From the IMG/VR virus record IMGVR_UViG_3300045988_119598, positions 1-29,711 of that record: DNA of 29,711 nt; one strand, 5' to 3'. Numbering within the stretch: the stretch's first letter is position 1; the number at the start of each line of letters is the position of its first letter. Shown in pieces: positions 8,726 to 28,783 of the stretch. Source of the DNA: a virus. The notes below the pieces were generated by a model. It saw nothing but the letters and a program-made list of their open reading frames with translations. It did not search any database and was not told the origin of the DNA. The position numbers were made by a program, and so were the translations under genes.

Positions 8726-8726
8726 A

Positions 8727-10871: not shown

Positions 10872-11526
10872 ATTTTCAAATATATTTTTTATATGTTGAA
10901 GTTATTCCTCGCAGAGCATTATACACTCCACTTCTAATAAATTCATCTTCTATGTCTTTTGCCCTATTATATCGCTTAATAAGAACTCCATCTAAAGAAT
11001 ATCTTAATATAGATTTATATTTTGTATTAGTTCTAGTTTCTCAAGATTTCTTAATTGATTCTTTAGTCTCTTTGCTTCTCTTTCTACCATATAAAGGGCA
11101 AAGCTCTCCAATTTTGCCATACATACTTGAATGCTTACCATACATTGGATTTTTAGAACCTTTTTTGGATTTTGATATTTTTGCTTTTGTAATTGCATTT
11201 ACAATGTGGCCAGATGTTCCATCTCCTCCATCAGTCATATTATATCCTCTATCCTTAGTACTAAACAATTCAATATAATGCTTTTCTGCTTCATCTAGCT
11301 TTTTATTTAACAAACTTGATGTAGAGCAACAAAATACCTGTATAACTTCAATAATAAAATTCTCTTCACCATACTTTCTCATTGCTCGGCTTAAATGATA
11401 ATTTAGACCATTTCTCGCCTTTAACTTGTGTTCAGTAAATCTTTGATTTACATCTCGTACAGTCTTACCAATATAAATTTTATTATTTACCAAATTGGTA
11501 ATTTTATATATTACACCGCTTTTCAT
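10861..11526 (-). CDS. GIY-YIG homing endonuclease (221 aa; in-frame TGA at 11041-11043 and 10876-10878)
   Basis: GVIYKITNLVNNKIYIGKT ... RFTEHK ... GYNMTDGG. Read-through adds a NUMOD/IENR-like DNA-binding tail (ILRYSLDGVLIKRYNRAKDIE...TYKKYI-W-KYEL). TAG 10861-10863. Confidence 0.85.
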
Positions 11527-11594
11527 AATTTTTACATTAGTTTTACATATCTTTTTCTTAAAATATAAACTAATTTACTAATGTATTAAAATAA

Positions 11595-11620
11595 TTAAAG
11601 GAGACCTAAGCCTCCTTTAA
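11595..11620 (-). terminator. Hairpin abutting dispersed-element copy 2
   Basis: 9-bp stem TTAAAGGAG / CTCCTTTAA with an 8-nt loop. On the minus strand it is followed by AATTATTTTAAT. Confidence 0.5.
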
Positions 11621-11670
11621 TGTCAAGTTTTTTACTCACTCAAAGTACTAAGAAAAAATAAAAACTGACA
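11621..11670 (+). repeat. Dispersed 50-bp intergenic element, copy 2
   Basis: TGTCAAGTTTTTTACTCA 11621-11638 ... CTGACA 11665-11670. It starts 1 nt from the stop of the minus-strand fibre gene (11672-11674). Confidence 0.9.
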
Positions 11671-11671
11671 A

Positions 11672-12661
11672 TTAGTTAAAACTTGCTAAAGTTCAGTTTT
11701 TAGATGCAGCTAATGATTTCTGTTCCTCAGTAAGTGCATTATAAACGTTAGTATAAAAAGCTAAAGTTTTAGTATCTTTTCCAGATAAATCACTAACATT
11801 TGTAATAATATCAGTTACCGATTGACTATTTAGTGCTCTAAAATTTGCTAAATTCATACTTTTATCGGCTCCTTCAACACCCCCAAAATAAGTTACAACA
11901 GTACTAGCCATACCACAAAGTGCTGTTTTATTAAGATCTTGGTATAAAGAACAATTTGTTAATTTTATTTTACCTACAGATGTGATACTAGATGAATATG
12001 AGCTAAAATACTGAGTAAAAGTTACTTGCCCATTTATAACTTCAATTTCAGGGACACTAATAGGAACAGCAGAATCAGTAGTTACTAGATTAAAAAAATA
12101 TTCTAATGCACATACACTAGTTTCATACTTATTTGTTATTGTTATATTTTTTGGAAAAGATGTGGATAAATAAAATGTGCGCGTACAATATCCTCAACTA
12201 GTGGAATAAGGATTAATAAATTCTAGAGTATCAATACTGCCTTCAAAACCAGAAAATGTAAATGAACGTTCGGCCATCAGTTTTATCTCATTAATATGTA
12301 TATTGCTAGCATATTGAAATGTTCTTTCCGCAGCATATAATGTATCTGGATTAATATGATCAGATATATCAATAGGATCTTGAAATGAAGCCATATGAAA
12401 TCAATAACTACAATCTTGTGGAATTTTATATTCAACGTTATCATAATGATCTTTATCCATTTTAGAATTTGAAAATGTTAATCCATAATCATTTAAATTA
12501 ATCTTTCCTCCACCACCTCCAGAAATCTGTCCTATCTTATCTGCATAGCTTCTAAAGGTATCTGAATCCGATACAGCAACACCTTTAGCTACAATAGCAT
12601 CTTTAATGGCACTCTTAGTACCTTCAAGATACGTTAATTTATCAGAAATTGTATTTGCCAT
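11672..12661 (-). CDS. Tail fibre / receptor-binding-like protein (329 aa; three in-frame TGA)
   Basis: Track ORFs 12401..12661, 12194..12394 and 11693..11911 are one frame joined by TGAs at 12401-12403, 12194-12196 and 11693-11695, with open sequence between them. It has the N-terminal fibre motif KLTYLEGTKSAIKDAIVAKGVAVSDSDTFRSYADKIGQI and a Gly5 hinge. It ends ...ASKN-W-TLASFN, TAA. Confidence 0.6.
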
Positions 12662-12662
12662 A

Positions 12663-13184
12663 TTAGATATATTTAAATTTTACCCCTTTATAAGTGTCTG
12701 TTCTTCCTTTAAGACAATCTATAACTCTACTATGAGTATACCCATCTATTGATGTTTCAATTGCATTTTTATATGTTTTAACTAGTAAATCATTAATAAA
12801 TAGCCCTACAGGTTTACTAATTTTATCAATACATCTATTTATTCTAGTTCCATATGTATTATTATACTTTGCATCACATCATTCTAAATTTTCTACCCTA
12901 TTATCTGTCTTATTTTCATTTATATGGTTAACATATGGTAGATTGTCAGGATTTGGAATAAATGCTTCTGCTACTAGTCTGTGAACTTTAATAGCTTTAG
13001 GTTTATCTAAGCCAGATACTAGAATTACATAATTATAGCCATATTTATCTATATGCTGTTTTAGCTTTTTATGTATTTGTTTTCTGGTTCTTCCAATAGA
13101 ATCTTTAAAAGTCAATGGGTTACTATATACATCTCCTGTAGAAGATACACTATAGTTAGGATAATTTGTTAATACTCTATTCAT
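12663..13184 (-). CDS. HNH homing endonuclease, NUMOD4/HNH_3-like (173 aa; in-frame TGA at 12879-12881)
   Basis: [11 protein letters not shown] ... [42 protein letters not shown]. Read-through adds a DNA-binding tail ([21 protein letters not shown]...YKGVKFKYI). TAA 12663-12665. The start is taken at MNRVL (13184). Confidence 0.85.
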
Positions 13185-13851
13185 TTGGAATTTCACCATT
13201 AATTGTATCAAGAGTAGTTGAGATAGTTCCGATTTGTGCCTGTAAAGCTTGAATAGCAGCTTCTAATTCTGAAACCTTAGCATTATATACTTCTAATGTT
13301 ACATAATTAGATAGTTCCGATTTGTCTGCTTTATTTGCATCTAATGTCCCAACTTCCTTATCTAATGCATCAATCTTTAGTCCATCCTCTTCTTGCTTAC
13401 TTTCAATAGCTTTAATCTTAGAAGAATTGTTTCCAACTTCACTTTCAACAGATGCAAGCTCTTCTTTAGTAGCAAAATCCTCAGTACTTGGAATATCTGA
13501 CTTGAGAGCATAGTTAGAAAGATCAATAGATAGATGTAAATCTTCACCCTCTCTATTAAATGACATAGGAGAGTTTACTTGAAATACTTCCATCTTAGAT
13601 GTTTCTAATTCAGTAATATCATTCTTAATTGGCTCTAACTTAGGTTCAAGTATGACATCCAACTGAGAATTAATTTGCTCATCAATTATTTCAACAGCCT
13701 TATCTTCAGAAATGTAATTACCTTTAGGTTGAAATCTTTCATCTGATTCAATCTTAGTATAAGAACCAACAGGAAGTTGTCCAGATTCAATTCCACATTT
13801 CTTACTTACATAGAAAGTTTGTGTGTTTTTAGTATTTTTAAGTATAATCAT
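13177..13851 (-). CDS. Fibre-associated coiled-coil protein (224 aa)
   Basis: The C-terminal heptad-like region shares the block [14 protein letters not shown] with the 771-aa fibre. TAG stop. Confidence 0.55.
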
Positions 13852-13853
13852 AA

Positions 13854-14090
13854 TTATCTAACTTTTATTGATTCCTCATACTCTTCTAATGCTTTCTTAG
13901 CTGCTTCTTTATATTCAATATCTTTATCAAGAGTTATTTCTCTTAGATGCTTTAAATCACAGCTTAAAGGACATATACATTCTTTAAAAGATGAATATTG
14001 TTTAATATCTAATTCGTCCTTATAGTTAGTAAGTAAATAACCTTCTTCTGGTTTTACTATTTGATATTTTTCTTTAATTTCAATTTTCAT
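13854..14090 (-). CDS. Hypothetical protein (78 aa)
   Basis: Intact ORF, tightly packed in the fibre cluster. TAA stop. Confidence 0.5.
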   Translation of the reverse strand: MKIEIKEKYQIVKPEEGYLLTNYKDELDIKQYSSFKECICPLSCDLKHLREITLDKDIEYKEAAKKALEEYEESIKVR

Positions 14091-14092
14091 AA

Positions 14093-15007
14093 TTAATTAT
14101 ATGATAAAGTTCAACCTTTTGCTACTGTATTAGCCATTTGATCTTCTGTTAGTGAATCATAAACAGTCTTATTAAATACTATCGTAGGATTTTTACCTGG
14201 ATCTGTATATAACCCATCTATAATATTATTTACTGATTGTGAAGTTAACGATGGCAATCCTCCTAAATGTAAACTATATGTTCTCATAGTTACTCCTTGC
14301 CCAATATTTGTAAATCCTCCAATATCTGTTAATAGTGTAAAATCTTTATCATTGGTATTACGCTCATCATCGATTCTAAATAAATCATCAAATGATGATC
14401 AATTACTTGCATCATATTGTGGTACAGTTTTTAACCTATAACAGTATCTAAACATTTGATCTACTATAACTTTATCAGTTGTTGTAAATGTTATTTCTGG
14501 GGCAGATTCAAGATTAATAGAATATCTAAATAAACCATAACAAAATACAGCATTAGATAGATTTAATGGTTCTATAGAAGTTGCTCCAATTCCTGATAAA
14601 GCTCCCATCATACGAGTTTTTCCAGTAAATATAGAAGGCAGTATATATGTTAATTGACTACATCCAGCAAATAAATAATATAGATCTGTATCCGTATTTT
14701 CAGATAAATACTTTTCAGCATCTATAGATGTTACTAAGCTATTTTGTAGAGTTGAGGTAGCTCTAAAAATAGATGTTTTTGGATTACTAGACTCTGGGAT
14801 AATATACCAACTTGTAACATTAGGATTATTACATTCATTAATAATAGTATTTTCACTACCAAAATATTGTCTAGATATTGACTTTCTAAATGCCTCATCT
14901 TCAAATTGAATTACTGGACAAGGCCAGACTTTGGTACTGCCTACATAAATGGCAGTACCTTGTCTGTTACCTACATAAAAAGCTTTTAAATTATCTCGAA
15001 TATTCAT
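14093..15007 (-). CDS. Fibre / receptor-binding-like protein, paralogous C-terminus to 11672..12661 (304 aa; two in-frame TGA)
   Basis: Track ORF 14399..15007 continues through TGAs at 14399-14401 and 14111-14113 to TAA 14093-14095. The C-terminus LTSQSVNNIIDG...VYDSLTEDQMANTVAKG-W-TLSYN parallels LNSQSVTDIITN...VYNALTEEQKSLAASKN-W-TLASFN. Confidence 0.6.
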
Positions 15008-15008
15008 A

Positions 15009-17324
15009 TTACTCTACAATTAAATATTGAGTATTTGGATCTTTACTTGAAATAGCATCATATTCAGATTGAGTTACCACAAGAATAGTATGAACTTGTG
15101 GTTGAGTTCCACTTCCATAAGTAACTGGATTAGAAACGCTCTCAATATCTATATTTCCACTACCTAACAAGCTTTCTCCATTAACTGTCTTGATATTTGT
15201 TCCACTAACTAAAGTATCTTGTTTATTTCCTAATCCTGCATTTAATTCAGTTTCCGTAACATATTCATCAGGAATAGAAGTTAAAAAGCCACTATCGTTA
15301 GTAAGCTCAGATGTCTTAGTTGGTATACCTAAATCCTCAAGACTCTTATTACCACTAAGTTCAACAGAATTGATTTGAGGCTTATTGGTCAATTGATTAT
15401 AATCAGTAGTACCTCCACCTCCTGAAATATCTAAGTTACCAGAACCAAGAATATCCTGTCCATTTATGGTTTTTATATTCGTACCACTAACTAATTGTTC
15501 TTGGTAATTATGGAAACTCTTGTCTACAGAAACTCCAGTTGGAGTAATCTGAGCAGTAACTAAAGTATGATTAGTTGTGCCAGATTCAAAATGGAACGTA
15601 GCTTGAATATTTTCTCCTAAAACAAAACATACTTCTGGAGCAGCTACATCACCATAACCTAGAATATTTACATAATAAAGCTCAAATGGTGTTTTATTAG
15701 CTATAGCATTCTTAACAGCAGCGAAATCTCCAGAAAGATGAGTTGAAGAATTTATAAATAGATATGGAATATCAGAACCACTATTGATTACTATATTACC
15801 TTCTCCAAGTAAAGACTGACTATTGATTGTTTTGATATTAGTTCCACTTACAAGTAAATCTTGCTTAGTAGCCATCTCTTTATCAAGAGCATCTATCTTA
15901 TTTCCATCTTCTTCTTGCTTAGTTTTAATAACTGATATATCTGAAGTATTAGTTGCTACTTGAGTAGATAGAGATTCTACTACAGAAGAATCTGCTTTGT
16001 TAGCAAGTTCTGTTTTTGTTGCATAATCTCCTACAGGCTGTTTAGTGGCAAGCTGCTCATCAACATAAGTTTTGTCTGCTTTATTTGCTAAATCCCCAGA
16101 AACTTCTGCTTCAGTTACAAAGTTGGAATCATTAGTAAGCTCACTAACTTTAGTTGGAATTTCACTTTTTAAAGCATAGTCTCCAGCTGGTTGATATCCA
16201 GATAAATCTACAGATAATTGGGATTTATCTTCATTAAAAGCTAATGGAGCTTGGGGAGTAAATACGCCTTGCTTAGTTGCAAGTTTCTCATCTACTTCAT
16301 CTTTAGTATAGCCTTTATTAGTAAGATCAACTTCTGTTGTCTTAACAGTCATTTGACCATTATTAACTATAATAGCATTAATTGTTACTAATACTTCATT
16401 ATCTTTAAAATAGTACCCATATAAATCAATAGTATTAGTATGCTCTACTACAGTCATTGGAACTACTATTGTATCTTCATTATATGTTATCTGCCCAAAT
16501 AAATAGAAATCCATATTACTTCTAATAAAGTTATAAATTTCTAATTGCCTATCTGGGTCATTTACATCTAAATTTAAGAAGAAGTGATTCTGAAAAGCAG
16601 AAATTACATTATCAACAATAGTGATATTAGCTCCAGCAGTTAGTATTCCTTGTTTGGCATTTATAGCTTTGTTAATTTCTATATTTAATTGGTCTATCTC
16701 AGCCTTTGTATATTTATCTGCTAATTGAGCATATAAAGTAGCAGTAATAATTCCTGCAGTATTTGTTTCAGTATTGTATGCAGGTAATTCTTCAGGATTG
16801 CCAGTTTGATTTCCAAATATAGAAGATATAGTAACCTTATCTGGAACTGATTGAATCTGAATGGATGGAATTATCTCCGTTGGTTTAATAAGCTCTACTC
16901 CATTTAAAGATGGCTTATTATTAATTGTAGAATAATCAGCAGAAATAGTGTTGTTATCAATTACTATACCATTACCTTGAATTAATATATCTTGTTTCCC
17001 AGAAGTAGCTTCAGTTATTTCGGCAGTTACTTCTTCTTTAGTTGGATAGTCAACAAGTTTCTCTGTAATTTGATTATCAACATCTTCAATGGAAGTAACT
17101 CCTAATTCTTTAGAAGTTATATTTCCATTTAATTCAACTCCATTTATTTCAGGTTTAAATTGAAGATCTTGATAGTTATTTGAGCCTAACTGAGAACCAT
17201 CCATAACCTTAACTTCATCATCCTTGTCAATAACAATAACTTTAGTCACATTTGACTTATCTATTGTTTCGACTTCAAGGACATTAAGATAAGGAAGAAT
17301 TGTCTTTTCAGTTTCGTTTGCCAT
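15009..17324 (-). CDS. Tail fibre protein with internal repeats (771 aa from MANETEK)
   Basis: There are three copies of LVSGTNIKT(I/V)N..S/ILG.GN(I/L), two copies of IPTK.SELTNDS.F, and repeated NKP..N(G/S)VEL blocks. The start is taken at ATG 17324 because the track start (17372) lies within 8 nt of the upstream terminator stem and overlaps its T-tract. Confidence 0.7.
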   Translation of the reverse strand: MANETEKTILPYLNVLEVETIDKSNVTKVIVIDKDDEVKVMDGSQLGSNNYQDLQFKPEINGVELNGNITSKELGVTSIEDVDNQITEKLVDYPTKEEVTAEITEATSGKQDILIQGNGIVIDNNTISADYSTINNKPSLNGVELIKPTEIIPSIQIQSVPDKVTISSIFGNQTGNPEELPAYNTETNTAGIITATLYAQLADKYTKAEIDQLNIEINKAINAKQGILTAGANITIVDNVISAFQNHFFLNLDVNDPDRQLEIYNFIRSNMDFYLFGQITYNEDTIVVPMTVVEHTNTIDLYGYYFKDNEVLVTINAIIVNNGQMTVKTTEVDLTNKGYTKDEVDEKLATKQGVFTPQAPLAFNEDKSQLSVDLSGYQPAGDYALKSEIPTKVSELTNDSNFVTEAEVSGDLANKADKTYVDEQLATKQPVGDYATKTELANKADSSVVESLSTQVATNTSDISVIKTKQEEDGNKIDALDKEMATKQDLLVSGTNIKTINSQSLLGEGNIVINSGSDIPYLFINSSTHLSGDFAAVKNAIANKTPFELYYVNILGYGDVAAPEVCFVLGENIQATFHFESGTTNHTLVTAQITPTGVSVDKSFHNYQEQLVSGTNIKTINGQDILGSGNLDISGGGGTTDYNQLTNKPQINSVELSGNKSLEDLGIPTKTSELTNDSGFLTSIPDEYVTETELNAGLGNKQDTLVSGTNIKTVNGESLLGSGNIDIESVSNPVTYGSGTQPQVHTILVVTQSEYDAISSKDPNTQYLIVE

Positions 17325-17370: not shown

Positions 17371-17405
17371 AAAAAACAAGGGGCAAGTAAATTAATACTC
17401 GCCCC
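17371..17405 (-). terminator. Rho-independent terminator after the capsid/abundant-protein genes
   Basis: On the minus strand: GGGGCGAGTA-ttaatt-TACTTGCCCC, then TTGTTTTTTG. Confidence 0.75.
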
Positions 17406-17416
17406 TCTTTCTGTTA

Positions 17417-17941
17417 TTAAGCACCTACAACGCTTTGGATAGCTTCTGCAGATAACTCATAAGGATAAGAATCTGAATCTGTTGAAAGTGTCAGAGTATA
17501 AGCATTCTGATCACCTTTAGCAGTACCAGTAACACCCGTACCAGCGGAAGCGCTTACATAATCATCTTTACCTAAGAACCAATACTTACCATTACTGTCT
17601 TCAACAACAACTGCAAGCTGACCAATAGATAAAGCTGCAATCTCTACTCGTTTTGCTGTCTCCATCTTAGTAAATACAAGAGCAAGCTCATTACTTACAT
17701 AATTAACACCAGCACTTTCATCTACATTTAAAGTTGAGGTTAGAGAACCAGTAGCCTTTCTAAATTGATAATTATACCATTTAGCAGAAGCTTCAAGAGT
17801 AATAGCCGAAATCATATTACTATCAGGATCAACCGTTACACTCTTAACATCTGAATACTGAGTAATCCAAACCTGTTTGATACCACCTAATGAAGGTTGG
17901 CAATCAAGTGTGATTCCTGCAATAGTTATTAAACAAGCCAT
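17417..17941 (-). CDS. Abundant virion protein, possibly major tail (tube) protein (174 aa)
   Basis: It lies directly after the capsid gene and before a strong terminator. The pattern CQPSLGGIKQVWI ... VVVEDSNGKYWFLG resembles tail-tube proteins by eye only. No TGA (3 Trp, all TGG). Confidence 0.45.
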   Translation of the reverse strand: MACLITIAGITLDCQPSLGGIKQVWITQYSDVKSVTVDPDSNMISAITLEASAKWYNYQFRKATGSLTSTLNVDESAGVNYVSNELALVFTKMETAKRVEIAALSIGQLAVVVEDSNGKYWFLGKDDYVSASAGTGVTGTAKGDQNAYTLTLSTDSDSYPYELSAEAIQSVVGA

Positions 17942-17980
17942 ATTTCAATTTATTTTAAAAGTTAATAAAATCTATTGAAA

Positions 17981-18886
17981 TTAAGCCTTAGCGCCTAATA
18001 CTACTTCATCAGGGAATGCAACTTGTACACCAGCGTTAAATTCAATAGCTAATCTGAACTCGCGGAAATCCTGTGAATACCACAATTCAAATTTCTCCTC
18101 ATCATTTACCATATCTACTCCATAGAAGAAGTTCTTATCAAGCTGACCAGCTACGATCTTGTCAGTTCCATTAAGACCATTAACAGCAATTACTTTAACC
18201 TGTGAACCAGGAAGATAAATTTCACCATTAAGATTCTCACCACTATAATGATAGTAGTTCTTTGCAACTAATTCATTAACGAACTTACGGAAAGTATCAG
18301 CACCTACAAGGATAGAAGCACCTTCCAGAACCTTCTCAGGAATAGCGTTATAAACTGCCATAATGTCATCATAAGCAGATGCACCAGTAATTACTACATC
18401 AACTGTACCAGCATCATTTTTTAAGATCTTTAACAGACCATCAAAGTACTTCAGGTTATTAGTAACAGAAGTAGTATCACCCTGCCAGATTGCAATCTCT
18501 ACAGCTTCTTTTACATTCTCAACAACAGCACTTACAAAATCCTCTTCAAAAGGAAGAGTCTTCTGACCAGCAGCTACTCGAATCTGATACTGAGTCCAAT
18601 ATTTAAGCATAGCTTTATCGCAATATGCCATATTGATCTTAATATTACCAGTCTTAAGGATTCTCTGAGAAAGAGTCTGAGTTCCAGCCTCATCCCAACC
18701 ACAAGTAAGACCATCACCAAACTGAACATCAGTCGATAACAAGTTAAGAGCAGCATCAGTTTTAATATCTGATTGAAGATTGAACAAACTTGCACTCTTA
18801 GCTTTTAAAACAGCCTCTTTAATAAGAGGAAGACGTCTTTGCTCCACATAAGCAGGAAGCGTTGCCATTACAGGACTATTTGCCAT
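17981..18886 (-). CDS. Major capsid protein (301 aa)
   Basis: Position after the protease and scaffold genes, size, and composition. No TGA (4 Trp, all TGG). The family call is by context, not by search. Confidence 0.65.
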   Translation of the reverse strand: MANSPVMATLPAYVEQRRLPLIKEAVLKAKSASLFNLQSDIKTDAALNLLSTDVQFGDGLTCGWDEAGTQTLSQRILKTGNIKINMAYCDKAMLKYWTQYQIRVAAGQKTLPFEEDFVSAVVENVKEAVEIAIWQGDTTSVTNNLKYFDGLLKILKNDAGTVDVVITGASAYDDIMAVYNAIPEKVLEGASILVGADTFRKFVNELVAKNYYHYSGENLNGEIYLPGSQVKVIAVNGLNGTDKIVAGQLDKNFFYGVDMVNDEEKFELWYSQDFREFRLAIEFNAGVQVAFPDEVVLGAKA

Positions 18887-18907
18887 AATTATTTAAAGTT
18901 TTATAAA

Positions 18908-19522
18908 TTAACCAATAAAGTTTTTAAGCTTTCTATCTATCTCTGCTATTCCACTTATGGAAGCAGTTGTCTTATTTTCAAGTGTTTCTTCTGCTGAAAA
19001 AGCAGCACTCATCTTACTCATTTTTTCTACAGTTTTTTCAGTAGCTTCTGACTTTCCTTCAAGTTCAGCTACCTTCTTAACAAGCTTATCTACAATATCA
19101 TAAAGCTCATTAATTTCGCGATGAATAGCGTCGATTGCATCAGTCTCAGTTTCTTTAACACCATCTGTTTCAACAGCAGGATCAGCAACTTCCTCAGCCT
19201 TTACTCTCTTAGTTCCACAAGCAGCATCAACCTCAACAGTTTTCATACCTTCATCTGGATCAACTTCAGCTTTTGGATCAGTAATGGACTCTACTTTACC
19301 GTCTTTAACAACAATAGTTTTGCCATCTTCGGTAACATACTCACCATCAGCAGCAGGTGCATATTCGCCAGTATCAGTATCCATTGTATATACACTCATA
19401 CCTGCCCTTAGATCCTCATCCTCACTACCATCGTAAGTTAGAACTCCAGCACTAGTCTTAACATCGTTAAATTTTGCTAAGAGTTTACTAAGTTCGATTC
19501 TCAGTTTAGTTAATTTGTTCAT
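18908..19522 (-). CDS. Scaffolding-like protein (204 aa)
   Basis: Acidic, coiled-coil-rich and Trp-free, immediately upstream of the capsid gene. Confidence 0.5.
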   Translation of the reverse strand: MNKLTKLRIELSKLLAKFNDVKTSAGVLTYDGSEDEDLRAGMSVYTMDTDTGEYAPAADGEYVTEDGKTIVVKDGKVESITDPKAEVDPDEGMKTVEVDAACGTKRVKAEEVADPAVETDGVKETETDAIDAIHREINELYDIVDKLVKKVAELEGKSEATEKTVEKMSKMSAAFSAEETLENKTTASISGIAEIDRKLKNFIG

Positions 19523-20117
19523 ACTTAAATTTAAAATTTTTATGATAGTTTTGTTTATTTTTGCAACATTTTATAATAGCACTATGATCAAAATTTCCGT
19601 TTCTTTCAGCGTCCATAGCAGATTTCCAAGTGCATATATAAGTATCATTAATATCTGTCATAATTATACGTTTACTTACTTTTTCTTTCTGCTGTTCAGT
19701 TTGTTTAGTTCCTAATCTACATTCTCTTAACTTTAATTTTGTTTCATCCTTTAATACTCTTCCAGACTGTTTTAAAGACATTTTGTGTTTAGATTCTTCA
19801 CTGTGTTTAAATCCAGTATTAGAACCTCCACCTTCATTTAAATTATAACCATTATTTAATGTATCAAATAACTGAATATATTTAATTTCTGCATTATTTA
19901 GTTGTCTTTTCAATAATTCTGTAGAAGAACAACAAAAGATTTGAAGAATTTCCCATTTAAAGTTATTGAATTCATATTTCCTAATCGCTCTATGAAAATA
20001 TGTAAGATTAGAACTGTATTTATGTTCATTCTTTCTTCTCAAGAAATTATTTGTTTGTCCTACATATTTATTGCCATTTATAAGATTTGTTGCTAGATAT
20101 ATAACTCCACTATACAT
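19506..20117 (-). CDS. GIY-YIG homing endonuclease (203 aa; no TGA)
   Basis: GVIYLATNLINGNKYVGQT ... RKNEHKY ... GYNLNEGG. Clear paralogue of 10861..11526 (shared FCCS(S/T)..LL...L..AE..YI.LF). Inserted between the protease and scaffold genes. Confidence 0.85.
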   Translation of the reverse strand: MYSGVIYLATNLINGNKYVGQTNNFLRRKNEHKYSSNLTYFHRAIRKYEFNNFKWEILQIFCCSSTELLKRQLNNAEIKYIQLFDTLNNGYNLNEGGGSNTGFKHSEESKHKMSLKQSGRVLKDETKLKLRECRLGTKQTEQQKEKVSKRIIMTDINDTYICTWKSAMDAERNGNFDHSAIIKCCKNKQNYHKNFKFKYEQIN

Positions 20118-20118
20118 T

Positions 20119-20709
20119 CTATTTAACTCTTTTTATCTTCTTAATCATATTAAGGATCTCTTTTATTTCGTCATATTCATCAGACTTTCTCTCTAAAGTA
20201 AATAAACCTTCAATAGAGAATCCTTTAAACTTGCCAGCTTTAATTGCATCCCATATAACAGGATTATTTACTTTATAAGTAGCAAATAATGAACCATCTG
20301 GACAATCAGCAAATTCAACTGGATTAATTCCTCTATCTATATCTTTAATATATAGTTCTTGAAGAATTATTCCAGGAATTACTGAATCTTCCAAATGTTC
20401 AATATTTACATCAGTAGTTCTCTTATCATACATCATTTTTTCAGCCATTAAACGGAGAGTTTCTTTATTATATTGAATATAGTATTCTCCATTTTTACTA
20501 TCTCGTCTAAAAATAGGTGTGTCACATACCATTAAACAAGAAGTAACTATATGTTTTTCTTCATCCATCGAGAACTTCTGAGATTCCCCAAAAGCAAGCC
20601 AATTAACTTGGGTTGCAGGTTTACTGGTCAATGCTACAAATTCTATTCCATCACAATCATCAGCAATAATTGCTTGATATAATGGAAGATCATTATACAT
20701 TTTTTCCAT
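20119..20709 (-). CDS. Prohead protease, XkdF-like (196 aa)
   Basis: TDVNIEHLED ... GSLFATYKVNNPVIWDAIKAGKFKGFSIEG matches the XkdF-type pattern (D.NH ... W..vk.G...GfSieG) by eye. TAG stop. Confidence 0.6.
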   Translation of the reverse strand: MEKMYNDLPLYQAIIADDCDGIEFVALTSKPATQVNWLAFGESQKFSMDEEKHIVTSCLMVCDTPIFRRDSKNGEYYIQYNKETLRLMAEKMMYDKRTTDVNIEHLEDSVIPGIILQELYIKDIDRGINPVEFADCPDGSLFATYKVNNPVIWDAIKAGKFKGFSIEGLFTLERKSDEYDEIKEILNMIKKIKRVK

Positions 20710-20787: not shown

Positions 20788-20836
20788 TGTCAAGTTTTTT
20801 ACTCAAATTTGTATCTAAGATAAATAAATTTTGACA
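20788..20836 (+). repeat. Dispersed intergenic element, copy 3 (49 bp)
   Basis: TGTCAAGTTTTTTACTCA 20788-20805 ... TTGACA 20831-20836. It lies upstream (minus sense) of the head-morphogenesis genes. Confidence 0.9.
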
Positions 20837-20903: not shown

Positions 20904-23237
20904 TTAGAAACTTGCATTTGATTCTGTAACTGCAACTTTAGTTTGAACACTGGTAATATCACTCTCAACTACATAACATTTAACAGGTTGATTCAATTCA
21001 TCAGTCTCTTTATTGCCAAGTAAGTTTCGAGTATATTCTACAGGAGCAGTATTTAAAGCAGCAGGAGCAGTAGTTCCTGCATCACTTCCAGAACCTCCAG
21101 ATGAAGGAAGCTGCTCATTCTGGATAGCCTTAACATTAGCAAGACCTGCAATAACTGCTGTAGCTGCTGCAATAGGTGCCAGAATAGGACCTACAAAAGG
21201 TATACCTACCATAGCTTTATATGCACCTTGGGCAGAACTGATAGTATCAATAATAGCTTGAGTAGTAGCTAATGCTTTATACACTTTAAATGATTTCTCC
21301 CTCTGTTTCTCAGATTTTTTATCATCACTAGCTTCTTGTTTAAATACATTAGCTAAAGCTCCACTTAAAGAAGAAGCTACATTCATAGTAGCTTGAATAG
21401 CTTGCTGCTTTTTAGCTTGTCTATCTTTAAATGCTTGCAGATCTGCTTCTCCTCTTGCATTAGCTGCTTCTGATAAAGCTATATCATTAGCATCCTGTTG
21501 CAATTTAATAGCTTGAGATTGATTAGCATATTCTTGTTCTGTTATTAACTTATTGTTATATTGCTCATCTAAGATAGCTTGCTGTTGAGACATCAATTCA
21601 TTTTCTCTTGTAATCCTATCTTTAGTAAGATTATATAACTCTTTATTATAATCTACTGTAGCTTGATATTGCTTTTGAACATCTTTTCCAGATTGATAGA
21701 AATCCGTTGAACCAAATTGTTGAACTCTAGTTTCATAACTTCCAGATTTACCTGCAGATAATGCAGCCTCTTTATTTGCAAATAATTGAGATTCCCTATC
21801 TTGCATTTCTTGTAATGCAGATAATCTGTTTTCTAAGTCTTCCCTATAACTTTCATTATTATTATCTAACCACTCTTTATTATATGCATCATTTATTTGC
21901 TTTAATCTCTTTCTATATTCCTCAACTGTTATAAGCTCTTTATCTTTAGCTGTTTTAAGAGCATCTAATTGATTTTGATATTTGGTATTTAATTCATCTA
22001 ACTCTCTAGCTTCATCATCTAATAGCAGTTTTCTATTCTCTTCATAGAAATCATTGATAACCTTCAGTAAATCAGCGTTACGTTTCTTTGCATCTTCAAT
22101 ATTCTTTAGATAGTTAGCCTTAGCCTCTTCTCTGGCTTTACGCTCTGCAGAGATTTCCATCAGTTTAGTCTTTTCATAAGCTTCAGCAGATTTTTGCATC
22201 AAATCATTTCGCTTCTCAAGATAAGTGTTATAAATACCAGAAGCTTTATCATAAGCTGCTTTTTGATCATCATTTAACTTACTTAAAAAGAAATCAACTT
22301 CATTTGAGCTAGTCTTTAATCTTCATTGTATAGCTTGTGAATACTCCTCCCAAGTGTCATATCCAGATTTCTTAAACTCTTTTCTGAAGTATTTATTACT
22401 CTTAAGTATATCTGTAAATGAATCATTATATGCTTTAGTTACACTTCCAAATTGCTGGAATAATTTAGCATCTAATTCACCTAATGCTTGAGCATAATCC
22501 TTTCAGATTTGTATTTCATTCTTTTTACCTTCAGCTAAATCTCTTTCTCTCTGTCTTTCTAATTCTGCAATTTCTGTATTAGCTTGTGCATAGTTAGTTC
22601 CTCATTGGTCTGTTATATCTTTTAAACCAGAAATACTAATTTCTAAATCATCAATTCCTGATGCTGCTTTAATTGCAAAATCTATTAACATACCAAGAGC
22701 TACAACTAAAGCTCCAATTCCTGTAGATATAATTGCAGACCGTAGCACACCCATTGCTACAGATAATCCTCCAGTTGCAGCCGTAGCACCACCCATTGCT
22801 ACAGATAAGGCTTTAAATGATTTTACTCCATTAAGAATACCTTCACCTAAACCTTTTAATCCTCCAATTCCTTGAACTATAGCAATTGCTGCTTGCAATT
22901 TAACCATAGTTTTTTGAAGATTCTCTGTATCTTTTCCAAATAAAGTGAATGCTGCACTAACAGCTGAAACTCCTCCAGCTAAACCTCCTGCTACTTGATT
23001 GATACTGTCAAACGCCTTAACTGCATTTACAGTTTTACCTTGCATAGATTCTGTAGCAACACCTAACTTATTTTGAACATTAACAAGTTCTTCAAGTTTT
23101 TTAGTATAGTCAGTACTACCAATCTCAAGATCTTCCAGTTCAGCCGTCAAGCCAGCTACTTCTTCTCGTAGCTGCTTGATCGACTTTGAACTAGTTTTAG
23201 TATCTATACTAATTACTTTTTTAATTTCTTCAGCCAT
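20904..23237 (-). CDS. Tape-measure-like / internal virion protein (777 aa; three in-frame TGA)
   Basis: Track ORFs 22602..23237 and 20904..22202 share a frame. The gap is open except for TGAs at 22602-22604, 22503-22505 and 22323-22325. It has Gly/Ala-rich hydrophobic segments plus long coiled coils. TAA stop. Confidence 0.65.
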
Positions 23238-23238
23238 A

Positions 23239-26200
23239 TTAGTTTATAGTTACATTTTTAACAGTATCTTCTGTTAGTGTTAAATTCTCTGTATATTTAA
23301 CTGTTCCTGTAGGTCCATCAGTCACTTCGAATTTAAACTGAACACCTTTTTGAGCATATATTCTATAATTTCCATTATCCCGCATATAAGCCACATTCAA
23401 GAAGTTATCGTTTTCTGTAAGTATCTGATTTACCCCAGTTGGTATAGTGCCACTTGGAGTTTCTAATTTGCCTGTAATAAGAACAGCTTTATTTGGATCT
23501 GGAGTTTGAGTAAACATACATTTAGGACCATCTATGCCTCCTTGTTTATAAAGACTAAAGTAGAAACTTCTTTGGTCATATTTAGTATTCTCATTATAAG
23601 TAACTGTTAATTCTGTTTCTCCAGGTTGCCCAGATTCAGGTGTAATGCTTACAATTTCATTTGGACTATATCATCCTAATTCCCAAGGAATATTAGAAGT
23701 AACTGTAATCTTTTTAGTTCCAGCTTTATAATCTACAACTGGATCTGAATCGTCAAATGATATATACTCACCTAAATTTTGAATTCCAGCTAAATAACTA
23801 TTAATATCTTGAACTTTAATAAATTCACATCTAACAGTAGAATCTGAATTAATATCATAAGCATCTATCTTATTAAGTACCCAGTATGAATCTTCAAAAT
23901 AATAGAATTGTCTAAGTAAATCATATTTAACATCTAAATCATCTAATCTTACAAAGCAGGTGACTTTTTTAGTATTTACATCAAATTGATCATTATAAAA
24001 TTTACTCCAGAATTGGTGATATAAAGTAGATGTCTCAGTATATGTTATATCATCAATATATATCTCTTTAGGTAATCCAAAATCTCAAGAAGATATAACA
24101 TTATAGTCTGATAACATATATCTGGTAAACTGAGGTAATGAAGTCTTCTTTATTGCAATCTTCTTACCAGCTATGTCCCTCTCACTATTAGTATATAAAT
24201 AGCACATCTTCTGATCATTTAATACATTCATTTCTAGAAGATCATCTGTAATCCAGTAGTTTATAGGGTTTCCATCAACATCATTTAATGAAATATTACC
24301 ATTATAAAATACTAAGGATGATGTAATATCCTCTAATGTTTCCTCGTCTCCATCTACAGAAAAGAACATATTTTTAGCAAATATATCATTGCCAGGAATC
24401 TTATATCATTCTGTAGTCTTACTTGGATCTATAAAGTTAACTCCATATAAATCCTGACTTCCAGATTTGATATCAGATGCTAAACCACTAAATAGATTAT
24501 ATGTGATATTATCATTCATAAATGCAGGAACATAAGAACCAGTTGAATTATAGAAATTCCTGTAATACTTACTTCTCCATCTAGCTGAGATGATGTTATC
24601 ATAGATATTATCACTATATAAATCAGTAGTTTCTGAATTAAAGTTATAACCAGTATTTAATCTTTGCTGTCCATATAATTGACTATAATCTTTATTGTAT
24701 TTCTTATAATAATAAGTCTCTGGACCTTCAGAACTCATCTTATAGAATTTCTTATCAAATAATATTGGATTTACATTGAAATCTTTAGAATAGTCTATTC
24801 TCTTACTCCAATCTGAAATTATATTCTTAAAAAAGTTATTTCTAGTATATATTCTAATTGTTTTACTGTCAATATCTTTTGTAAAATACAATCCAAATAG
24901 TTTTGCATAGCTTAGAAGATAATCAGCAGGAGATTGTTCTGTCTTTAATAATAAACTCTTAGTTAATAGAGCATTACTCTGTAATGTGTCTGTAGATATT
25001 ATAAACTCAATAGGAGATGTAAAACTAACTGATATGTTTCCTTTTGGAATAGTTGAAAAGTCTTCACCTCTCTCGTATGTTTCACTTAATAATCCAGTAG
25101 GAGATACTGTATTACCTGTATCCCATATAACATTCAGTTTAATCTTTATATAATCAATCGGAATCTTGAAATCATCAATATTAATATGAAAGAGATTAGT
25201 CTTGGAATTTACATCATAAAATTGTCCGTTCTCAAAATATCCAAAGTGATTCACTCCATCACTTATAGGATTAGAATAATTTCCACTATTAGTAAATCTA
25301 TGAATCTCTGAAGTATATATAACTTGATCATATGTATTAGTTATAGATAACCATACATTAGCATATCCTTTATATGCTGAATAAAAAGGAGGTACTGATG
25401 AACTAAAATACCTTCTAAATCCGAAGTAATATCTATTAGCTATATTTCCAGCTGTCCTACTAAAATTCAAATTAAAGGAGAATGTTGTAGAGAGGCTCCT
25501 TCTAAATCCAGCTTCAGTCAAATCAATAACTCCAGATGAATATTTAATAGTAGAAGATGTTATATCCAACTGTAAAGGACTTAAAACAAACCCTTGATAA
25601 TTAATACCAACATCATAGTTATATGTTCCATCTTTAACTAGAATTCCAGATTCCGCAGTAGATTCAGCATCTCCAACTAAATTAGACAATAGAGGAAGAG
25701 CTATGAATGACTTACTCCAATAAGGATTAGAATTATTAAAGAAACTATCATCAAATATCACATCATATCCAGAATTCTCCTTTCTACAGATCGTTTCTAT
25801 TAACTTACTTAATTTTAAAGCTGGCCTTTGCATATAACTTCTAAGATCTCTTATCTCCCATTCTGTATATGCTCTATTTAAATTAGCTAATCCGTATCCA
25901 TTATATGGAGTATACGTAGTCCCTGATTCAGTTATAGATTTTGGAAATAAACTATCTCCATTAGTATTTATTAGACAAGTCTCATTATCAAAATCTTCAG
26001 GTAATCCATTATATGAAGGTATAAATGTTATATAGTCATATATCTGACTTCCATCTATAGACTTATTTCAATCAAAACAAGTATTTACAAAGTCCTTATT
26101 AATAGAGAAATTCATCTCCTTCTCAGAAGGTAATACATTCCCATCTTCATCTGTTATGAAGTACTGCAATTCCGATAATGTTCTAATAGTGCCATCTTCT

Positions 26201-26598
26201 TTATATTTAAGTCCATAGAAGAAATCTCCTAATCCTCCATATAAAGTAATATTATAAGTAATGACAGCTTGTTTTATAGATATGCTATTTAATTGCATAT
26301 ATCCAGATTCAACTAAATAGCCATTATTATAAATTCCAAAATCAACTCGTTTTGAAGGATCAAAATATACTCCAGAGAAATTACCTTCTTTTATATGGAG
26401 AAATCTATCTAATTTATAAATCTCTCCAAAAATCTTATTATTGTTTTTGTCTCCTGGAATGCTTATAGTCTTACTGAATGAATTTTTTACTATTGTTGGA
26501 TTCTGAAAATCTTCTACAGTATAAGTCATTGGTAACGATATGCCTTCAGAACAATGTACTTCTTTTCCTGCAATAAATAATTTAATATTCTTTCTCAT
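23239..26598 (-). CDS. Large tail/baseplate structural protein (1119 aa; four in-frame TGA)
   Basis: Track ORFs 26068..26598, 24406..25833, 24085..24369 and 23239..23517 are all in one frame. They are joined by TGAs at 26068-26070, 24406-24408, 24085-24087 and 23671-23673, with open codons between. TAA 23239-23241. Confidence 0.7.
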
Positions 26599-26600
26599 AA

Positions 26601-28781: not shown

Positions 28782-28783
28782 TT

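What the first reader, a model, noticed from the sequence alone, without database searches (positions are those of the whole stretch)
17417..20709. TGA codons are absent from the head block and the helicase gene but dense in tail, lysis and endonuclease genes
Protease, one GIY-YIG, scaffold, capsid and the tube-like protein (17417-20709), plus portal (9410-10492), the helicase-like gene (4488-6209), the sigma region-4-like gene and the terS-like gene, contain no in-frame TGA. The protease, capsid, tube-like, portal, helicase-like and terS-like proteins encode at least 19 Trp between them, all as TGG.

By contrast there are 3-4 TGAs each in the genes at 20904-23237, 23239-26598, 26601-28781, 7647-8300, 11672-12661 and 2569-2898, and 2 in the endolysin.

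This pattern fits either avoidance of the reassigned codon in the most abundantly or earliest made proteins, or use of the codon as a timing gate.
Basis: seen in the sequence. Interest (0 to 1): 0.65.

Follow-up and report, generated by a model that had tools for sequence, protein, structure and literature searches.

The report
Recoded phage spares head genes from TGA
This complete 29.6-kb human-gut phage reads the stop codon TGA as tryptophan but keeps it out of its helicase-like gene, a likely holin gene and the genes for its most abundant head proteins; this is a real variant of a published pattern, and what decodes TGA is still unknown.

Summary
The window holds 34 in-frame TGA and 64 TGG, and no gene ends in TGA. 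The head block has 0 TGA/11 TGG, portal 0/4 and the helicase-like gene 0/5.

In the window alone the unevenness is only marginal (omnibus permutation p=0.037). It becomes convincing across about 46 related TGA-recoded gut contigs:
- Capsid 2 TGA/156 TGG, scaffold 0/28, tube-like 2/113, helicase-like 1/105, holin-like ORF 0/46.
- Portal, protease and connector-region genes 11-16% TGA.
- Tail genes 32-63%, and fibre and HNH genes 75-100%.

Per Trp column, head genes average 0.08 TGA against 0.41 in tail genes (p=5e-5). Lys/Glu/Gln A-versus-G usage does not explain this.

TGA aligns with Trp, so this is code 4, not code 25.

A strict timing gate is not supported. Relatives carry TGA in portal (16/36), protease (10/40) and capsid (2). 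terL always carries TGA. No suppressor tRNA or other code-switch gene was found.

The best reading is graded purifying selection against TGA in high-demand proteins, plus unexplained avoidance in the helicase-like gene. Uneven use of recoded stops in phages is already published (Borges et al.); sparing the head module is a variant.

The parts
20119..20709 (-). Head maturation protease-like gene, first gene of the head block. Window 0 TGA/2 TGG; relatives 10/66.
   Evidence: PHROG protease and head-maturation-protease hits; counts.
19506..20117 (-). GIY-YIG homing endonuclease inserted in the head block. Window 0/2; family members in relatives 31/38, so the TGA-free state is not conserved.
   Evidence: phrog_314, E=5.6e-31; counts.
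18908..19522 (-). Scaffold-like acidic protein. No Trp in the window; relatives 0 TGA/28 TGG.
   Evidence: Position between protease and capsid.
17981..18886 (-). Major capsid protein. Window 0/4; relatives 2/156. It also prefers G-ending Lys/Glu/Gln codons (A fraction 0.34 against about 0.72 elsewhere).
   Evidence: phrog_11320 and phrog_1623.
17417..17941 (-). 'Tube-like' protein; identity not verified. Window 0/3; relatives 2/113.
   Evidence: Only PHROGs of unknown function. The AlphaFold2 model has pLDDT 55 and gave no significant fold match.
17378..17407 (-). Strong hairpin plus T-run terminator that closes the head block.
20788..20804 (-). Exact 17-mer GAGTAAAAAACTTGACA upstream of the head block. 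Identical copies lie at 29334-29350 (tail block), 11621-11637 (portal block) and 4406-4422 (g3853-to-terL block).
   Evidence: 4 exact hits and 1 three-mismatch hit; 0 of 100 shuffles reach 5. Conserved in relatives.
9410..10492 (-). Portal protein. Window 0/4; relatives 16/134, with one TGA in 16 of 36 contigs.
   Evidence: Pfam Phage_portal, E=1.7e-15.
8300..9410 (-). Two genes after portal (8727-9410, DUF6712; 8300-8767), probably head-completion or connector proteins. Window 1/3 and 0/1; relatives 16% and 11% TGA.
4488..6209 (+). SF2 helicase-like gene; the only large gene on the + strand. Window 0/5; relatives 1/105, although its Lys/Glu/Gln A fraction is an ordinary 0.73.
   Evidence: Walker A-like, DEYH and QxxGRxxR motifs seen in the sequence. 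Pfam gave only a weak Helicase_C_2 hit, below its cut-off. Counts.
6228..6389 (+). Small ORF (53 aa) directly downstream of the helicase-like gene, with one conserved TGA (20 TGA/1 TGG over 21 loci).
7482..7643 (-). Unannotated 53-aa ORF with two hydrophobic segments, holin-like, directly upstream of the endolysin. Window 0/2; 24 loci 0/46.
   Evidence: The holin function is inferred from position and hydrophobicity.
7030..7482 (-). Endolysin, Peptidase_M15_3. Window 2/1; at least one TGA in 23/23 relatives.
   Evidence: Pfam E=3.5e-14.
7647..8300 (-). Protein of unknown function with a hydrophobic N-terminus. Window 4/2; relatives 58% TGA.
20904..29263 (-). Tail block: 28784-29263 (1/1), 26601-28781 (4/12), 23239-26598 (4/10) and tape-measure-like 20904-23237 (3/2). 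Relatives 32-63% TGA; 23239-26598 carries 2-11 TGAs per relative.
   Evidence: Tape-measure PHROG hits.
10861..17324 (-). Fibre and accessory block with two homing endonucleases.
- 15009-17324: no Trp in the window; relatives 27/1.
- 14093-15007: 2/2.
- 12663-13199 (HNH): 1/0; relatives 46/15.
- 11672-12661: 3/0; relatives 79/21.
- 10861-11526 (GIY-YIG): 2/0.
552..3137 (-). Packaging and regulator region.
- terL 552-1799: 1/2; at least one TGA in 17/17 relatives.
- terS-like 1783-2235: 0/1; relatives 3/13.
- Membrane protein 2569-2898: 3/1.
- Sigma-region-4-like HTH 2892-3137: 0/1; relatives 15/2.
   Evidence: Pfam terminase and Sigma70_r4 hits.

Best explanation
The window is a complete, circular genome of about 29.6 kb from an abundant human-gut phage family that reads TGA as tryptophan throughout. 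It encodes no decoder of its own, so TGA is read by something the infected cell supplies.

Decoding must be efficient, because one essential tail gene carries up to 11 TGAs. It is still slightly worse than TGG, either slower or more prone to termination. The cost of a TGA therefore grows with how much of a protein must be made, and perhaps with how early it is needed.

Purifying selection then does three things:
- It removes TGA almost completely from the proteins expected in the highest amounts (capsid, scaffold, tube-like, holin-like) and from the helicase-like gene.
- It keeps TGA rare in proteins expected at about 12 copies per virion or similar (portal, connector-region proteins, protease).
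- It lets A/T mutation pressure drive TGA to 30-100% of Trp codons in low-copy proteins (tape measure, distal tail, fibres, terL, endolysin, homing endonucleases).

Shown: the codon distribution, its conservation, that it is specific to TGA, and the lack of any code-switch gene.
Inferred: the copy-number ranking of the proteins, the cost of TGA, and the source of decoding.
For: - TGA means Trp. 67 of 118 TGA columns have TGG partners, followed by Tyr/Phe/Leu/Ile; Gly appears in only 10. One TGA sits at the Trp position of an HNH motif (NLEW), recognised from memory of the HNH families.
- Graded, conserved avoidance across about 46 recoded contigs: capsid 2/156, scaffold 0/28, tube-like 2/113, helicase-like 1/105, holin-like 0/46; portal 11%, protease 13%, the two genes after portal 11-16%; tail genes 32-63%; fibre and HNH genes 75-100%.
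- Per Trp column: head 0.08 against tail 0.41 (Mann-Whitney p=4.7e-5); helicase-like 0.01 (p=0.002).
- The effect is specific to TGA. The Lys/Glu/Gln A fraction is 0.57 in head genes, 0.71 in tail genes and 0.73 in the helicase-like gene. Across gene families, TGA frequency does not track that fraction (rho=0.17, p=0.40).
- Selection is ongoing, not a leftover. Head Trp columns flip TGG/TGA about as often as Lys/Glu/Gln columns flip A/G (1.21 against 1.39 parsimony changes per column), yet TGA stays at low frequency.
- The trend recurs in the deep-branching lineage L037: head 4/16 against tail plus lysis 24/41, p=0.038.
- It is not a strict gate. Single TGAs occur in portal (16/36), protease (10/40) and capsid (L036, L037).
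- Decoding is efficient and context-independent. Gene 23239-26598 has 2-11 TGAs per relative, the base after TGA has the same distribution as after TGG (p=0.78), and TGAs show no positional bias within genes.
- The capsid gene independently shows strong codon selection for G-ending codons.
Against: - The helicase-like gene is not expected to be abundant, yet it avoids TGA as strictly as the capsid gene. Abundance alone does not explain it.
- Copy numbers are assumed from general tailed-phage biology, not measured. The 'tube-like' assignment is unverified.
- Scaffold, protease and the helicase-like gene show no parallel G-ending bias in other codon families.
- There are few independent Trp columns (19 in head genes, 5 in the helicase-like gene). 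Sequences are related and mosaic, so the p-values are approximate.
- The decoder and the host are unknown, so the assumed cost of TGA is untested.
Confidence: 0.5

Rival explanations
1. Temporal code switch (Borges-type gate). The host uses the standard code. TGA-free genes (helicase-like, procapsid proteins) are translated first. Later something makes TGA readable, releasing terminase, tail, endolysin and homing endonucleases, so procapsids form before packaging, tails and lysis.
For: - The helicase-like gene avoids TGA (1/105) despite ordinary A/G usage, which fits an early gene read in standard code.
- terL, the endolysin and every tail gene keep at least one TGA in every relative.
- The closest relatives are standard-code. 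L038 is nested among the recoded capsids in an NJ tree. Relatives L091, L095 and L096 lie in contigs labelled Bacteroides or Bacteroidales.
- The phage has a peptidoglycan peptidase, lacks Shine-Dalgarno sites and is of human faecal origin. From general knowledge, the known TGA=Trp bacteria are wall-less Mollicutes or insect endosymbionts.
- Borges et al. (bioRxiv 10.1101/2021.08.26.457843) report preferential recoding of tail, lysis and intron-endonuclease genes, and suppressor tRNAs detectable in only 35% of code-4 phages.
Against: - No switch component exists in a complete genome: no tRNA, even at relaxed thresholds, and no release factor or TrpRS. None of the 31 recoded relative loci scanned has a tRNA either.
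- Portal has a TGA in 44% of relatives, protease in 25%, and capsid in L036/L037.
- The ORF next to the helicase-like gene is TGA in 20/21 loci, and the regulator-like sigma-r4 gene in 15/17 relatives.
- The holin-like ORF, the classic lysis timer, has no TGA.
- No gene uses TGA as a stop, not even the TGA-free ones.
- Head and tail blocks share an identical upstream 17-mer.
Confidence: 0.25
2. Historical or mosaic legacy. The head module and the helicase-like gene are conserved 'code-neutral' cassettes inherited from, or still exchanged with, standard-code relatives. Fast-evolving or newly acquired genes (fibres, homing endonucleases) gained their Trp codons under A/T pressure as TGA. No expression-linked selection is involved.
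For: - Standard-code relatives share head genes at 55-65% identity and interleave with recoded ones in the capsid tree.
- Head genes are far more conserved across the family (about 90% identity) than tail genes (45-70%).
- TGA columns are often variable positions that align with Tyr, Phe, Leu or Ile.
Against: - Synonymous sites in head genes have turned over. 33 of 47 conserved Lys/Glu/Gln columns in the capsid gene are A/G polymorphic.
- TGG-to-TGA changes do arise in head genes at a similar per-column rate, but stay rare.
- No near-identical standard-code donor was seen; the closest has 65% capsid identity.
- The pattern persists in lineages whose capsids are 56-67% identical to the window's.
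Confidence: 0.15
3. Chance. With only 98 Trp codons spread over 27 genes, some runs of TGA-free genes are expected.
For: Window-only permutation tests are marginal: p=0.037, 0.064 and 0.089.
Against: The same genes are depleted across about 46 related contigs and in deep-branching lineages, with column-level p of about 5e-5 and a Lys/Glu/Gln control.
Confidence: 0.03

Closest known systems
[quoted passage not shown]
   Same: - TGA read as Trp in a gut phage.
- Recoded and standard-code relatives at short evolutionary distance.
- A DNA-metabolism gene (here the helicase-like gene) kept in standard code.
- Tail, endolysin and homing-endonuclease genes rich in the recoded codon.
- Per-family statistical avoidance of the recoded codon (they showed it for integrases).
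- Many code-4 genomes without a detectable suppressor tRNA.
   Different: - Here the head-morphogenesis genes and a holin-like gene are spared. In the published small clades the structural and lysis genes form one recoded unit, and lysis membrane proteins are preferentially recoded.
- No suppressor tRNA, release factor or TrpRS in a complete genome or in any relative scanned.
- TGA also occurs in a regulator-like gene and in an ORF beside the helicase-like gene.
- Avoidance is graded, not all-or-none.
- Whether this family belongs to one of their named clades was not tested.
crAss-like phages with TGA-to-Trp or TAG-to-Gln reassignment, mostly in late genes (Yutin et al. 2021, PMC7886860)
   Same: - Human-gut phages (their genomes are from human gut metagenomes). 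From memory, not from that paper or a tool here, crAss-like genomes are likewise AT-rich and lack Shine-Dalgarno sites.
- The code switches at short phylogenetic distance.
[quoted passage not shown]
   Different: - In that study in-frame stops in the capsid, portal and TerL genes were the diagnostic for recoding. Here capsid and portal are exactly the genes that avoid TGA.
- Unrelated, much smaller genome (29.6 kb). None of the ORFs scanned hit an RNA-polymerase or DNA-polymerase family.
Phage genomes with blocks of different genetic codes (Mgcod, bioRxiv 10.1101/2022.06.29.495998)
   Same: A standard-code-compatible block (the head block, 17417-20709) sits inside an otherwise TGA-recoded genome.
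   Different: - The 'block' is not absolute in relatives.
- TGA is never used as a stop anywhere, so the genome is better described as single-code with codon avoidance than as dual-coded.
- Only the abstract of this paper was seen.
Classical translational selection on synonymous codons in highly expressed genes
   Same: - The disfavoured codon is depleted in the proteins expected to be most abundant.
- The capsid gene shows a parallel shift to G-ending Lys/Glu/Gln codons.
   Different: - The disfavoured codon is a reassigned stop.
- The depletion is far stronger than in other codon families, and also affects the helicase-like gene, which is presumably not abundant.

Membership tests
Code-4 (TGA=Trp) recoded phage | Multiple in-frame TGAs in otherwise intact, conserved genes | tested here: met
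   34 in-frame TGAs in 20 of 33 ORFs. ORF coverage rises when TGA is read as sense.
Code-4 (TGA=Trp) recoded phage | TGA positions align with Trp in homologues | tested here: met
   67 of 118 TGA columns have TGG partners. Standard-code relatives show Trp most often (22), then Tyr, Ile, Leu and Phe.
Code-4 (TGA=Trp) recoded phage | TGA is not used as a terminator | tested here: met
   0 of 32 stop codons in the window (the 33rd ORF runs across the window junction). All orthologues with a complete end terminate at TAA or TAG at the homologous position. Standard-code relatives use TGA for about 19% of stops.
Code-4 (TGA=Trp) recoded phage | Phage-encoded suppressor tRNA(UCA) or other code-change genes (frequent, but not universal) | tested here: not met
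   ARAGORN at default and relaxed settings, Rfam at E<=1, and Pfam/PHROGs all found nothing.
Code-25 (TGA=Gly) phage of Absconditabacteria or Gracilibacteria | TGA aligns with Gly | tested here: not met
   Gly is a partner in only 10 of 118 columns, against Trp in 67.
Recoding as a late-gene or lysis timing gate (Borges model) | Early and replication genes are free of the recoded codon | tested here: inconclusive
   Helicase-like 1/105. However, the adjacent ORF 6228-6389 is 20/1 and the sigma-r4-like gene 15/2. Which genes are early is not known.
Recoding as a late-gene or lysis timing gate (Borges model) | Structural and lysis genes are recoded as a unit | tested here: not met
   Capsid, scaffold, tube-like and holin-like genes have about 0% TGA. 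Portal, protease and the connector-region genes have 11-16%.
Recoding as a late-gene or lysis timing gate (Borges model) | A component that changes decoding during infection | tested here: not met
   None detectable in a complete circular genome.
Recoding as a late-gene or lysis timing gate (Borges model) | The host uses the standard code | not testable with these tools
   Only indirect hints: the M15 peptidase, no Shine-Dalgarno sites, faecal origin, and standard-code relatives in contigs labelled Bacteroidales.
Phage of a natively TGA=Trp, wall-less host (Mycoplasma or Spiroplasma phage) | No need for a peptidoglycan hydrolase; TGA is the dominant Trp codon in an AT-rich genome (expectations from general knowledge) | tested here: not met
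   Peptidase_M15_3 endolysin, E=3.5e-14. TGA is only 35% of Trp codons at 29% GC, while Lys/Glu/Gln codons are about 72% A-ending.
Translational selection against a costly codon | Depletion scales with the amount of protein needed | tested here: inconclusive
   The ranking capsid/scaffold/tube-like/holin-like < portal/connector-region/protease < tail/fibre/enzymes fits. Copy numbers are assumed, and the helicase-like gene is an exception.
Translational selection against a costly codon | Difference in decoder supply or termination risk between TGA and TGG | not testable with these tools
   The host and its tRNA and release-factor set are unknown.

The most novel reading that the evidence does not exclude
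A suppressor-less phage of a standard-code gut bacterium (plausibly Bacteroidales) relies on a cell-supplied or still unrecognised TGA decoder. It uses the number of TGAs per gene as a translational rheostat. Head, tail, portal and packaging gene blocks carry the same upstream motif. On this reading, TGA-free genes give bulk procapsid and holin proteins, while TGA-laden genes (terminase, tail, endolysin, homing endonucleases) are held back in amount or time. This would set virion stoichiometry and a 'heads first' assembly order.
Probability: 0.15. Interest if true: 0.8.

Novelty: new variant of a known kind. Interest (0 to 1): 0.5.

Why it matters
Why phages recode stop codons, and how the many recoded phages without a suppressor tRNA get TGA read, are open questions. 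This family is small (29.6 kb), very abundant in human faecal assemblies, complete, and free of any detectable code-change gene. It nevertheless shows a sharp, conserved split that differs from the published 'all late genes recoded' picture: the helicase-like gene, the bulk head proteins and a holin-like gene are in standard-compatible code, while terminase, tail, endolysin and endonuclease genes are recoded. That makes it a tractable natural test of efficiency against timing. It also has a practical consequence: code-11 gene callers will recover the capsid and portal genes intact but fragment the tail genes, which can hide the recoding.

Tried and rejected
- Cultured relatives: blastn and tblastn of the head region and capsid against GenBank phages found nothing. 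terL and the helicase-like gene gave only distant hits, uninformative about the host.
- Host from long contigs: the 148-kb IMG/VR contig looked like a possible prophage in a host genome, but it is a wrap-around or concatemer-like assembly of phage genomes.
- Host from genomes: the genome-contig scan gave only distant (≤55% capsid identity) relatives (the two whose codons were tabulated, L090 and L091, show no in-frame TGA), in contigs labelled Bacteroides/Bacteroidales, Sphingobacterium, Lachnospiraceae, Coprococcus, Clostridium or Clostridia. This suggests a host group but does not prove one.
- Hidden suppressor tRNA: relaxed ARAGORN settings (lower score thresholds, introns, mitochondrial mode) and Rfam at E<=1 gave only spurious calls inside coding regions, none a credible tRNA with anticodon UCA.
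- Identity of the 'tube-like' protein: the AlphaFold2 model was poor (pLDDT 55) and Foldseek against the PDB gave no hit at E<=0.001.
- Leaky-stop context: the base after TGA has the same distribution as after TGG.
- Early-in-gene placement of TGAs: none.
- General A/G codon bias as the explanation: rejected.
- Stabilising selection on the number of TGAs per gene: dispersion is inconsistent between genes and confounded by relatedness, so it was dropped.
- Code 25 (TGA=Gly): rejected.

Full report
**What the window is.** The window is 29,711 bases at 29% GC. It has an exact 73-bp direct repeat at its two ends, so it is a circularly assembled, complete genome of about 29.6 kb. A related contig confirms that the two ends join. 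Read with TGA as sense, it holds 33 ORFs of at least 70 aa, all but one on the minus strand.

The order on the minus strand is:
- a tail block: 28784-29263, 26601-28781, 23239-26598 and a tape-measure-like gene at 20904-23237;
- a head block: protease-like, GIY-YIG endonuclease, scaffold-like, capsid and a 'tube-like' protein (20709 down to 17417), closed by a strong terminator at 17407-17378;
- a fibre and accessory block with an HNH and a second GIY-YIG endonuclease;
- portal and two following genes;
- a gene of unknown function at 7647-8300, an unannotated holin-like ORF (7482-7643), an M15 endolysin and a second HNH;
- small genes, a sigma-region-4-like HTH protein, a terS-like gene and terL.

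An SF2 helicase-like gene (4488-6209) and three small ORFs lie on the plus strand. The annotations rest on PHROGs and Pfam hits. The identity of the 'tube-like' protein could not be verified: the model had pLDDT 55 and gave no significant fold match.

**Checking the observation.** The window has 34 in-frame TGA and 64 TGG, and no gene ends in TGA. The head block has 0 TGA/11 TGG, portal 0/4, the helicase-like gene 0/5, and the six named proteins hold 19 Trp, all TGG. The genes listed as TGA-rich have exactly the numbers given.

Within the window alone the statistics are weak. Shuffling TGA/TGG labels among the 98 Trp codons gives p=0.037 for overall heterogeneity, 0.064 for the longest TGA-free run and 0.089 for Trp codons in TGA-free genes. 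A functional grouping, head morphogenesis against the rest, gives Fisher p=0.005, but the groups were chosen after seeing the data. 'Dense in tail genes' is overstated: the two large tail genes use TGA for only 25-29% of their Trp codons, below the genome mean of 35%.

**What TGA means.** I fetched 67 loci from IMG/VR that encode relatives of the capsid protein, and 22 more through the helicase-like protein.
- Loci L001-L037 and L039-L041 are TGA-recoded. L042 is a short fragment of the same ~90% clade and shows no in-frame TGA.
- L038 (65% capsid identity) and the more distant loci are not recoded.
- In codon-aware alignments, 67 of 118 columns that contain TGA also contain TGG. The next partners are Tyr, Phe, Leu and Ile; Gly appears in only 10 columns.

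TGA is therefore tryptophan (code 4), not glycine (code 25).

**The family-level test.** I assigned orthologues of every window gene in about 46 recoded contigs.

| Group | TGA/TGG, or TGA share of Trp codons |
|---|---|
| Capsid | 2/156 |
| Scaffold | 0/28 |
| Tube-like | 2/113 |
| Helicase-like | 1/105 |
| Holin-like ORF | 0/46 |
| Portal | 11% |
| Protease | 13% |
| Two genes after portal | 16% and 11% |
| Tail genes | 32-63% |
| 7647-8300, endolysin, terL | 42-58% |
| Fibre-like, HNH and GIY-YIG genes | 71-100% |

Three controls follow.
- Independent units. Taking each conserved Trp column as one unit, head genes average 0.08 TGA against 0.41 for tail genes (Mann-Whitney p=4.7e-5). The helicase-like gene averages 0.01 (p=0.002).
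- General codon bias. The A-ending fraction of Lys/Glu/Gln codons is 0.57 in head genes, 0.71 in tail genes and 0.73 in the helicase-like gene. Across gene families, TGA frequency does not correlate with it (rho=0.17, p=0.40). Only the capsid gene (0.34) and the tube-like gene (0.52) show a marked G-ending preference.
- Time for change. 33 of 47 conserved Lys/Glu/Gln columns in the capsid gene are A/G polymorphic. Head Trp columns change state about as often as Lys/Glu/Gln columns (1.21 against 1.39 parsimony changes per column), yet TGA stays rare. That is the signature of recurrent mutation held down by purifying selection, not of an unameliorated legacy.

The trend recurs in the deep-branching lineage L037, with head 4/16 against tail plus lysis 24/41 (p=0.038).

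Retrieval bias is unlikely. Most of the capsid search patterns contain no Trp, capsids that carry a TGA were recovered, and portal, protease and the tube-like gene were not used for retrieval.

The sigma-region-4-like gene is TGA at its Trp in 15 of 17 relatives. GIY-YIG family members are 45% TGA. The terS-like gene is 3/13.

**Gate or gradient?** Several results argue against an on/off timing gate.
- Portal carries one TGA in 16 of 36 relatives, protease in 10 of 40, the tube-like gene in 2, and capsid in L036 and L037.
- terL has at least one TGA in 17/17 relatives, so DNA packaging always needs TGA decoding.
- The small ORF just downstream of the helicase-like gene is TGA in 20 of 21 loci.
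- The holin-like ORF, the usual lysis timer, never has TGA.
- No gene anywhere uses TGA as a stop, including the TGA-free genes, whereas standard-code relatives use it for about 19% of stops.
- An identical 17-mer (GAGTAAAAAACTTGACA) precedes the tail, head, portal and packaging blocks. If it is a promoter element, head and tail genes are not separated at the level of transcription.
- No switch exists. There is no tRNA at default or relaxed ARAGORN settings or in Rfam at E<=1, none in the 31 recoded relative loci scanned, and no release factor or tRNA synthetase.

TGA decoding must nevertheless be efficient. The essential tail gene 23239-26598 carries 2-11 TGAs in relatives. The base after TGA is distributed as it is after TGG (p=0.78). 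TGAs show no positional bias within genes.

**Most likely mechanism.** TGA is read as Trp by something the infected cell provides. It carries a small cost relative to TGG, and that cost scales with how much, and possibly how early, a protein must be made. Selection therefore purges TGA from bulk proteins (capsid, scaffold, tube-like, holin-like), holds it low in intermediate-copy head proteins, and leaves it to A/T mutation pressure in low-copy proteins and enzymes.

The distribution, its conservation and its specificity to TGA are shown. The copy-number ranking, the cost and the decoder are inferred. The helicase-like gene fits an abundance argument poorly and is the strongest remaining hint of a temporal component. 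I give this explanation 0.5, a Borges-type temporal switch 0.25, a mosaic or legacy explanation 0.15, and chance about 0.03.

**Host.** The host is unresolved.
- The family comes from human faecal assemblies. IMG dataset 3300045988, the source of most relatives, is described as a human faecal co-assembly in bioRxiv 10.1101/2023.07.31.550844.
- The family is very abundant: 3,999 capsid homologues at E<=1e-20, on contigs of about 30 kb.
- The M15 peptidoglycan peptidase argues against the known wall-less TGA=Trp hosts.
- Nearly all genes lack a Shine-Dalgarno sequence.
- Distant standard-code relatives sit in contigs labelled Bacteroides or Bacteroidales, including one contig of 647 kb.
- In an NJ capsid tree the standard-code L038 nests among recoded lineages, so the code state changes over short distances.

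**Comparison with what is known.** Uneven use of recoded stop codons in gut phages is published.
- Borges et al. (bioRxiv 10.1101/2021.08.26.457843) report standard-code replication genes. They also report preferential recoding of a tail protein, lysis proteins and an intron endonuclease, avoidance in integrases, and detectable suppressor tRNAs in only 35% of code-4 phages.
- Yutin et al. (PMC7886860) report reassignment mostly in late genes of crAss-like phages, and used in-frame stops in the capsid, portal and TerL genes as their diagnostic for recoding.

This family matches that framework in the TGA-free helicase-like gene and in the TGA-rich tail, endolysin and endonuclease genes. It differs in four ways: the head-morphogenesis genes and a holin-like gene are spared, the avoidance is graded, the genome never uses TGA as a stop, and a complete genome has no detectable code-change gene. 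I therefore class it as a new variant of a known kind and give it moderate interest (0.5).

Noticed in passing
window 4406-4422, 11621-11637, 20788-20804, 29334-29350 (all minus strand): The exact 17-mer GAGTAAAAAACTTGACA (an A-tract followed by a perfect TTGACA) occurs four times. Every copy is intergenic and upstream of a gene block, and three of the four are followed directly by a hairpin. It is conserved at the equivalent places in many relatives. It could be a phage promoter or regulator site, perhaps the target of the 81-aa sigma-region-4-like protein (2892-3137). Only the head-block copy has a plausible -10 element.
   Followed up: partly
window 1-73 and 29639-29711: An exact 73-bp terminal direct repeat shows that the window is a circularly assembled complete genome of about 29,638 bp. 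The ORF at 2-550 continues across the junction and ends near 29529.
   Followed up: yes
window 7482-7643 (-): An unannotated 53-aa ORF with two hydrophobic segments lies immediately upstream of the endolysin and is a likely holin. It has 2 TGG and no TGA, and is 0 TGA/46 TGG over 24 loci, the opposite of the 'lysis genes are recoded' expectation.
   Followed up: partly
window 6228-6677 (+): Three small ORFs follow the helicase-like gene on the plus strand. The first (6228-6389) has a TGA that is conserved in 20 of 21 loci, so the plus-strand unit is not uniformly TGA-free.
   Followed up: partly
L038 (IMGVR_UViG_3300029905_000019), whole 20.7-kb locus: This close relative (65% capsid identity, 28% GC) has no in-frame TGA (43 TGG). 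Of the 20 non-overlapping ORFs tallied, none ends in TGA (17 TAA, 3 TAG). It may be a TGA-unassigned intermediate state, or simply chance at this GC content. In the capsid tree it nests among recoded lineages.
   Followed up: partly
window 17981-18886 (-): The capsid gene has a distinct composition: 38% GC against 29% for the genome, and 55% G-ending among A/G-ending two-fold codons against about 20-25% elsewhere. The scaffold and tube-like genes are also GC-richer (37%).
   Followed up: partly
window, all gene starts: Almost no gene has a Shine-Dalgarno sequence; the upstream regions are A/T-rich (for example TAAAATT before ATG). This suggests a host that initiates translation without Shine-Dalgarno pairing, as Bacteroidota do.
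   Followed up: partly
window 10861-11526, 12663-13199, 19506-20117, 6704-7027: A 29.6-kb genome carries four free-standing homing endonuclease genes (two GIY-YIG, two HNH). They are present or absent, and differently placed, in relatives; L025, for example, has a GIY-YIG gene between capsid and tube-like. They are therefore actively mobile.
   Followed up: no
L025/L087 (IMGVR_UViG_3300045988_175865, 148,631 bp): This contig is about five genome lengths long, and the stretch examined wraps through one full circle of the phage. It looks like a concatemer-like or mis-joined assembly rather than a prophage in a host genome.
   Followed up: partly
window 9410-29263: The gene order is unusual. Distal-tail and tape-measure-like genes lie upstream of the protease-scaffold-capsid genes, and portal lies about 7 kb downstream of the capsid gene and far from terL. 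This order is conserved in relatives whose capsids are only 55-67% identical to the window's.
   Followed up: no
window 4093-4487: The divergent intergenic region between the helicase-like gene and the minus-strand genes contains a repeated ATTTCCAAATAATTT element (two copies). On the plus strand it also has TTGACA, 17 nt, then TAAATT, just upstream of the helicase-like start.
   Followed up: no
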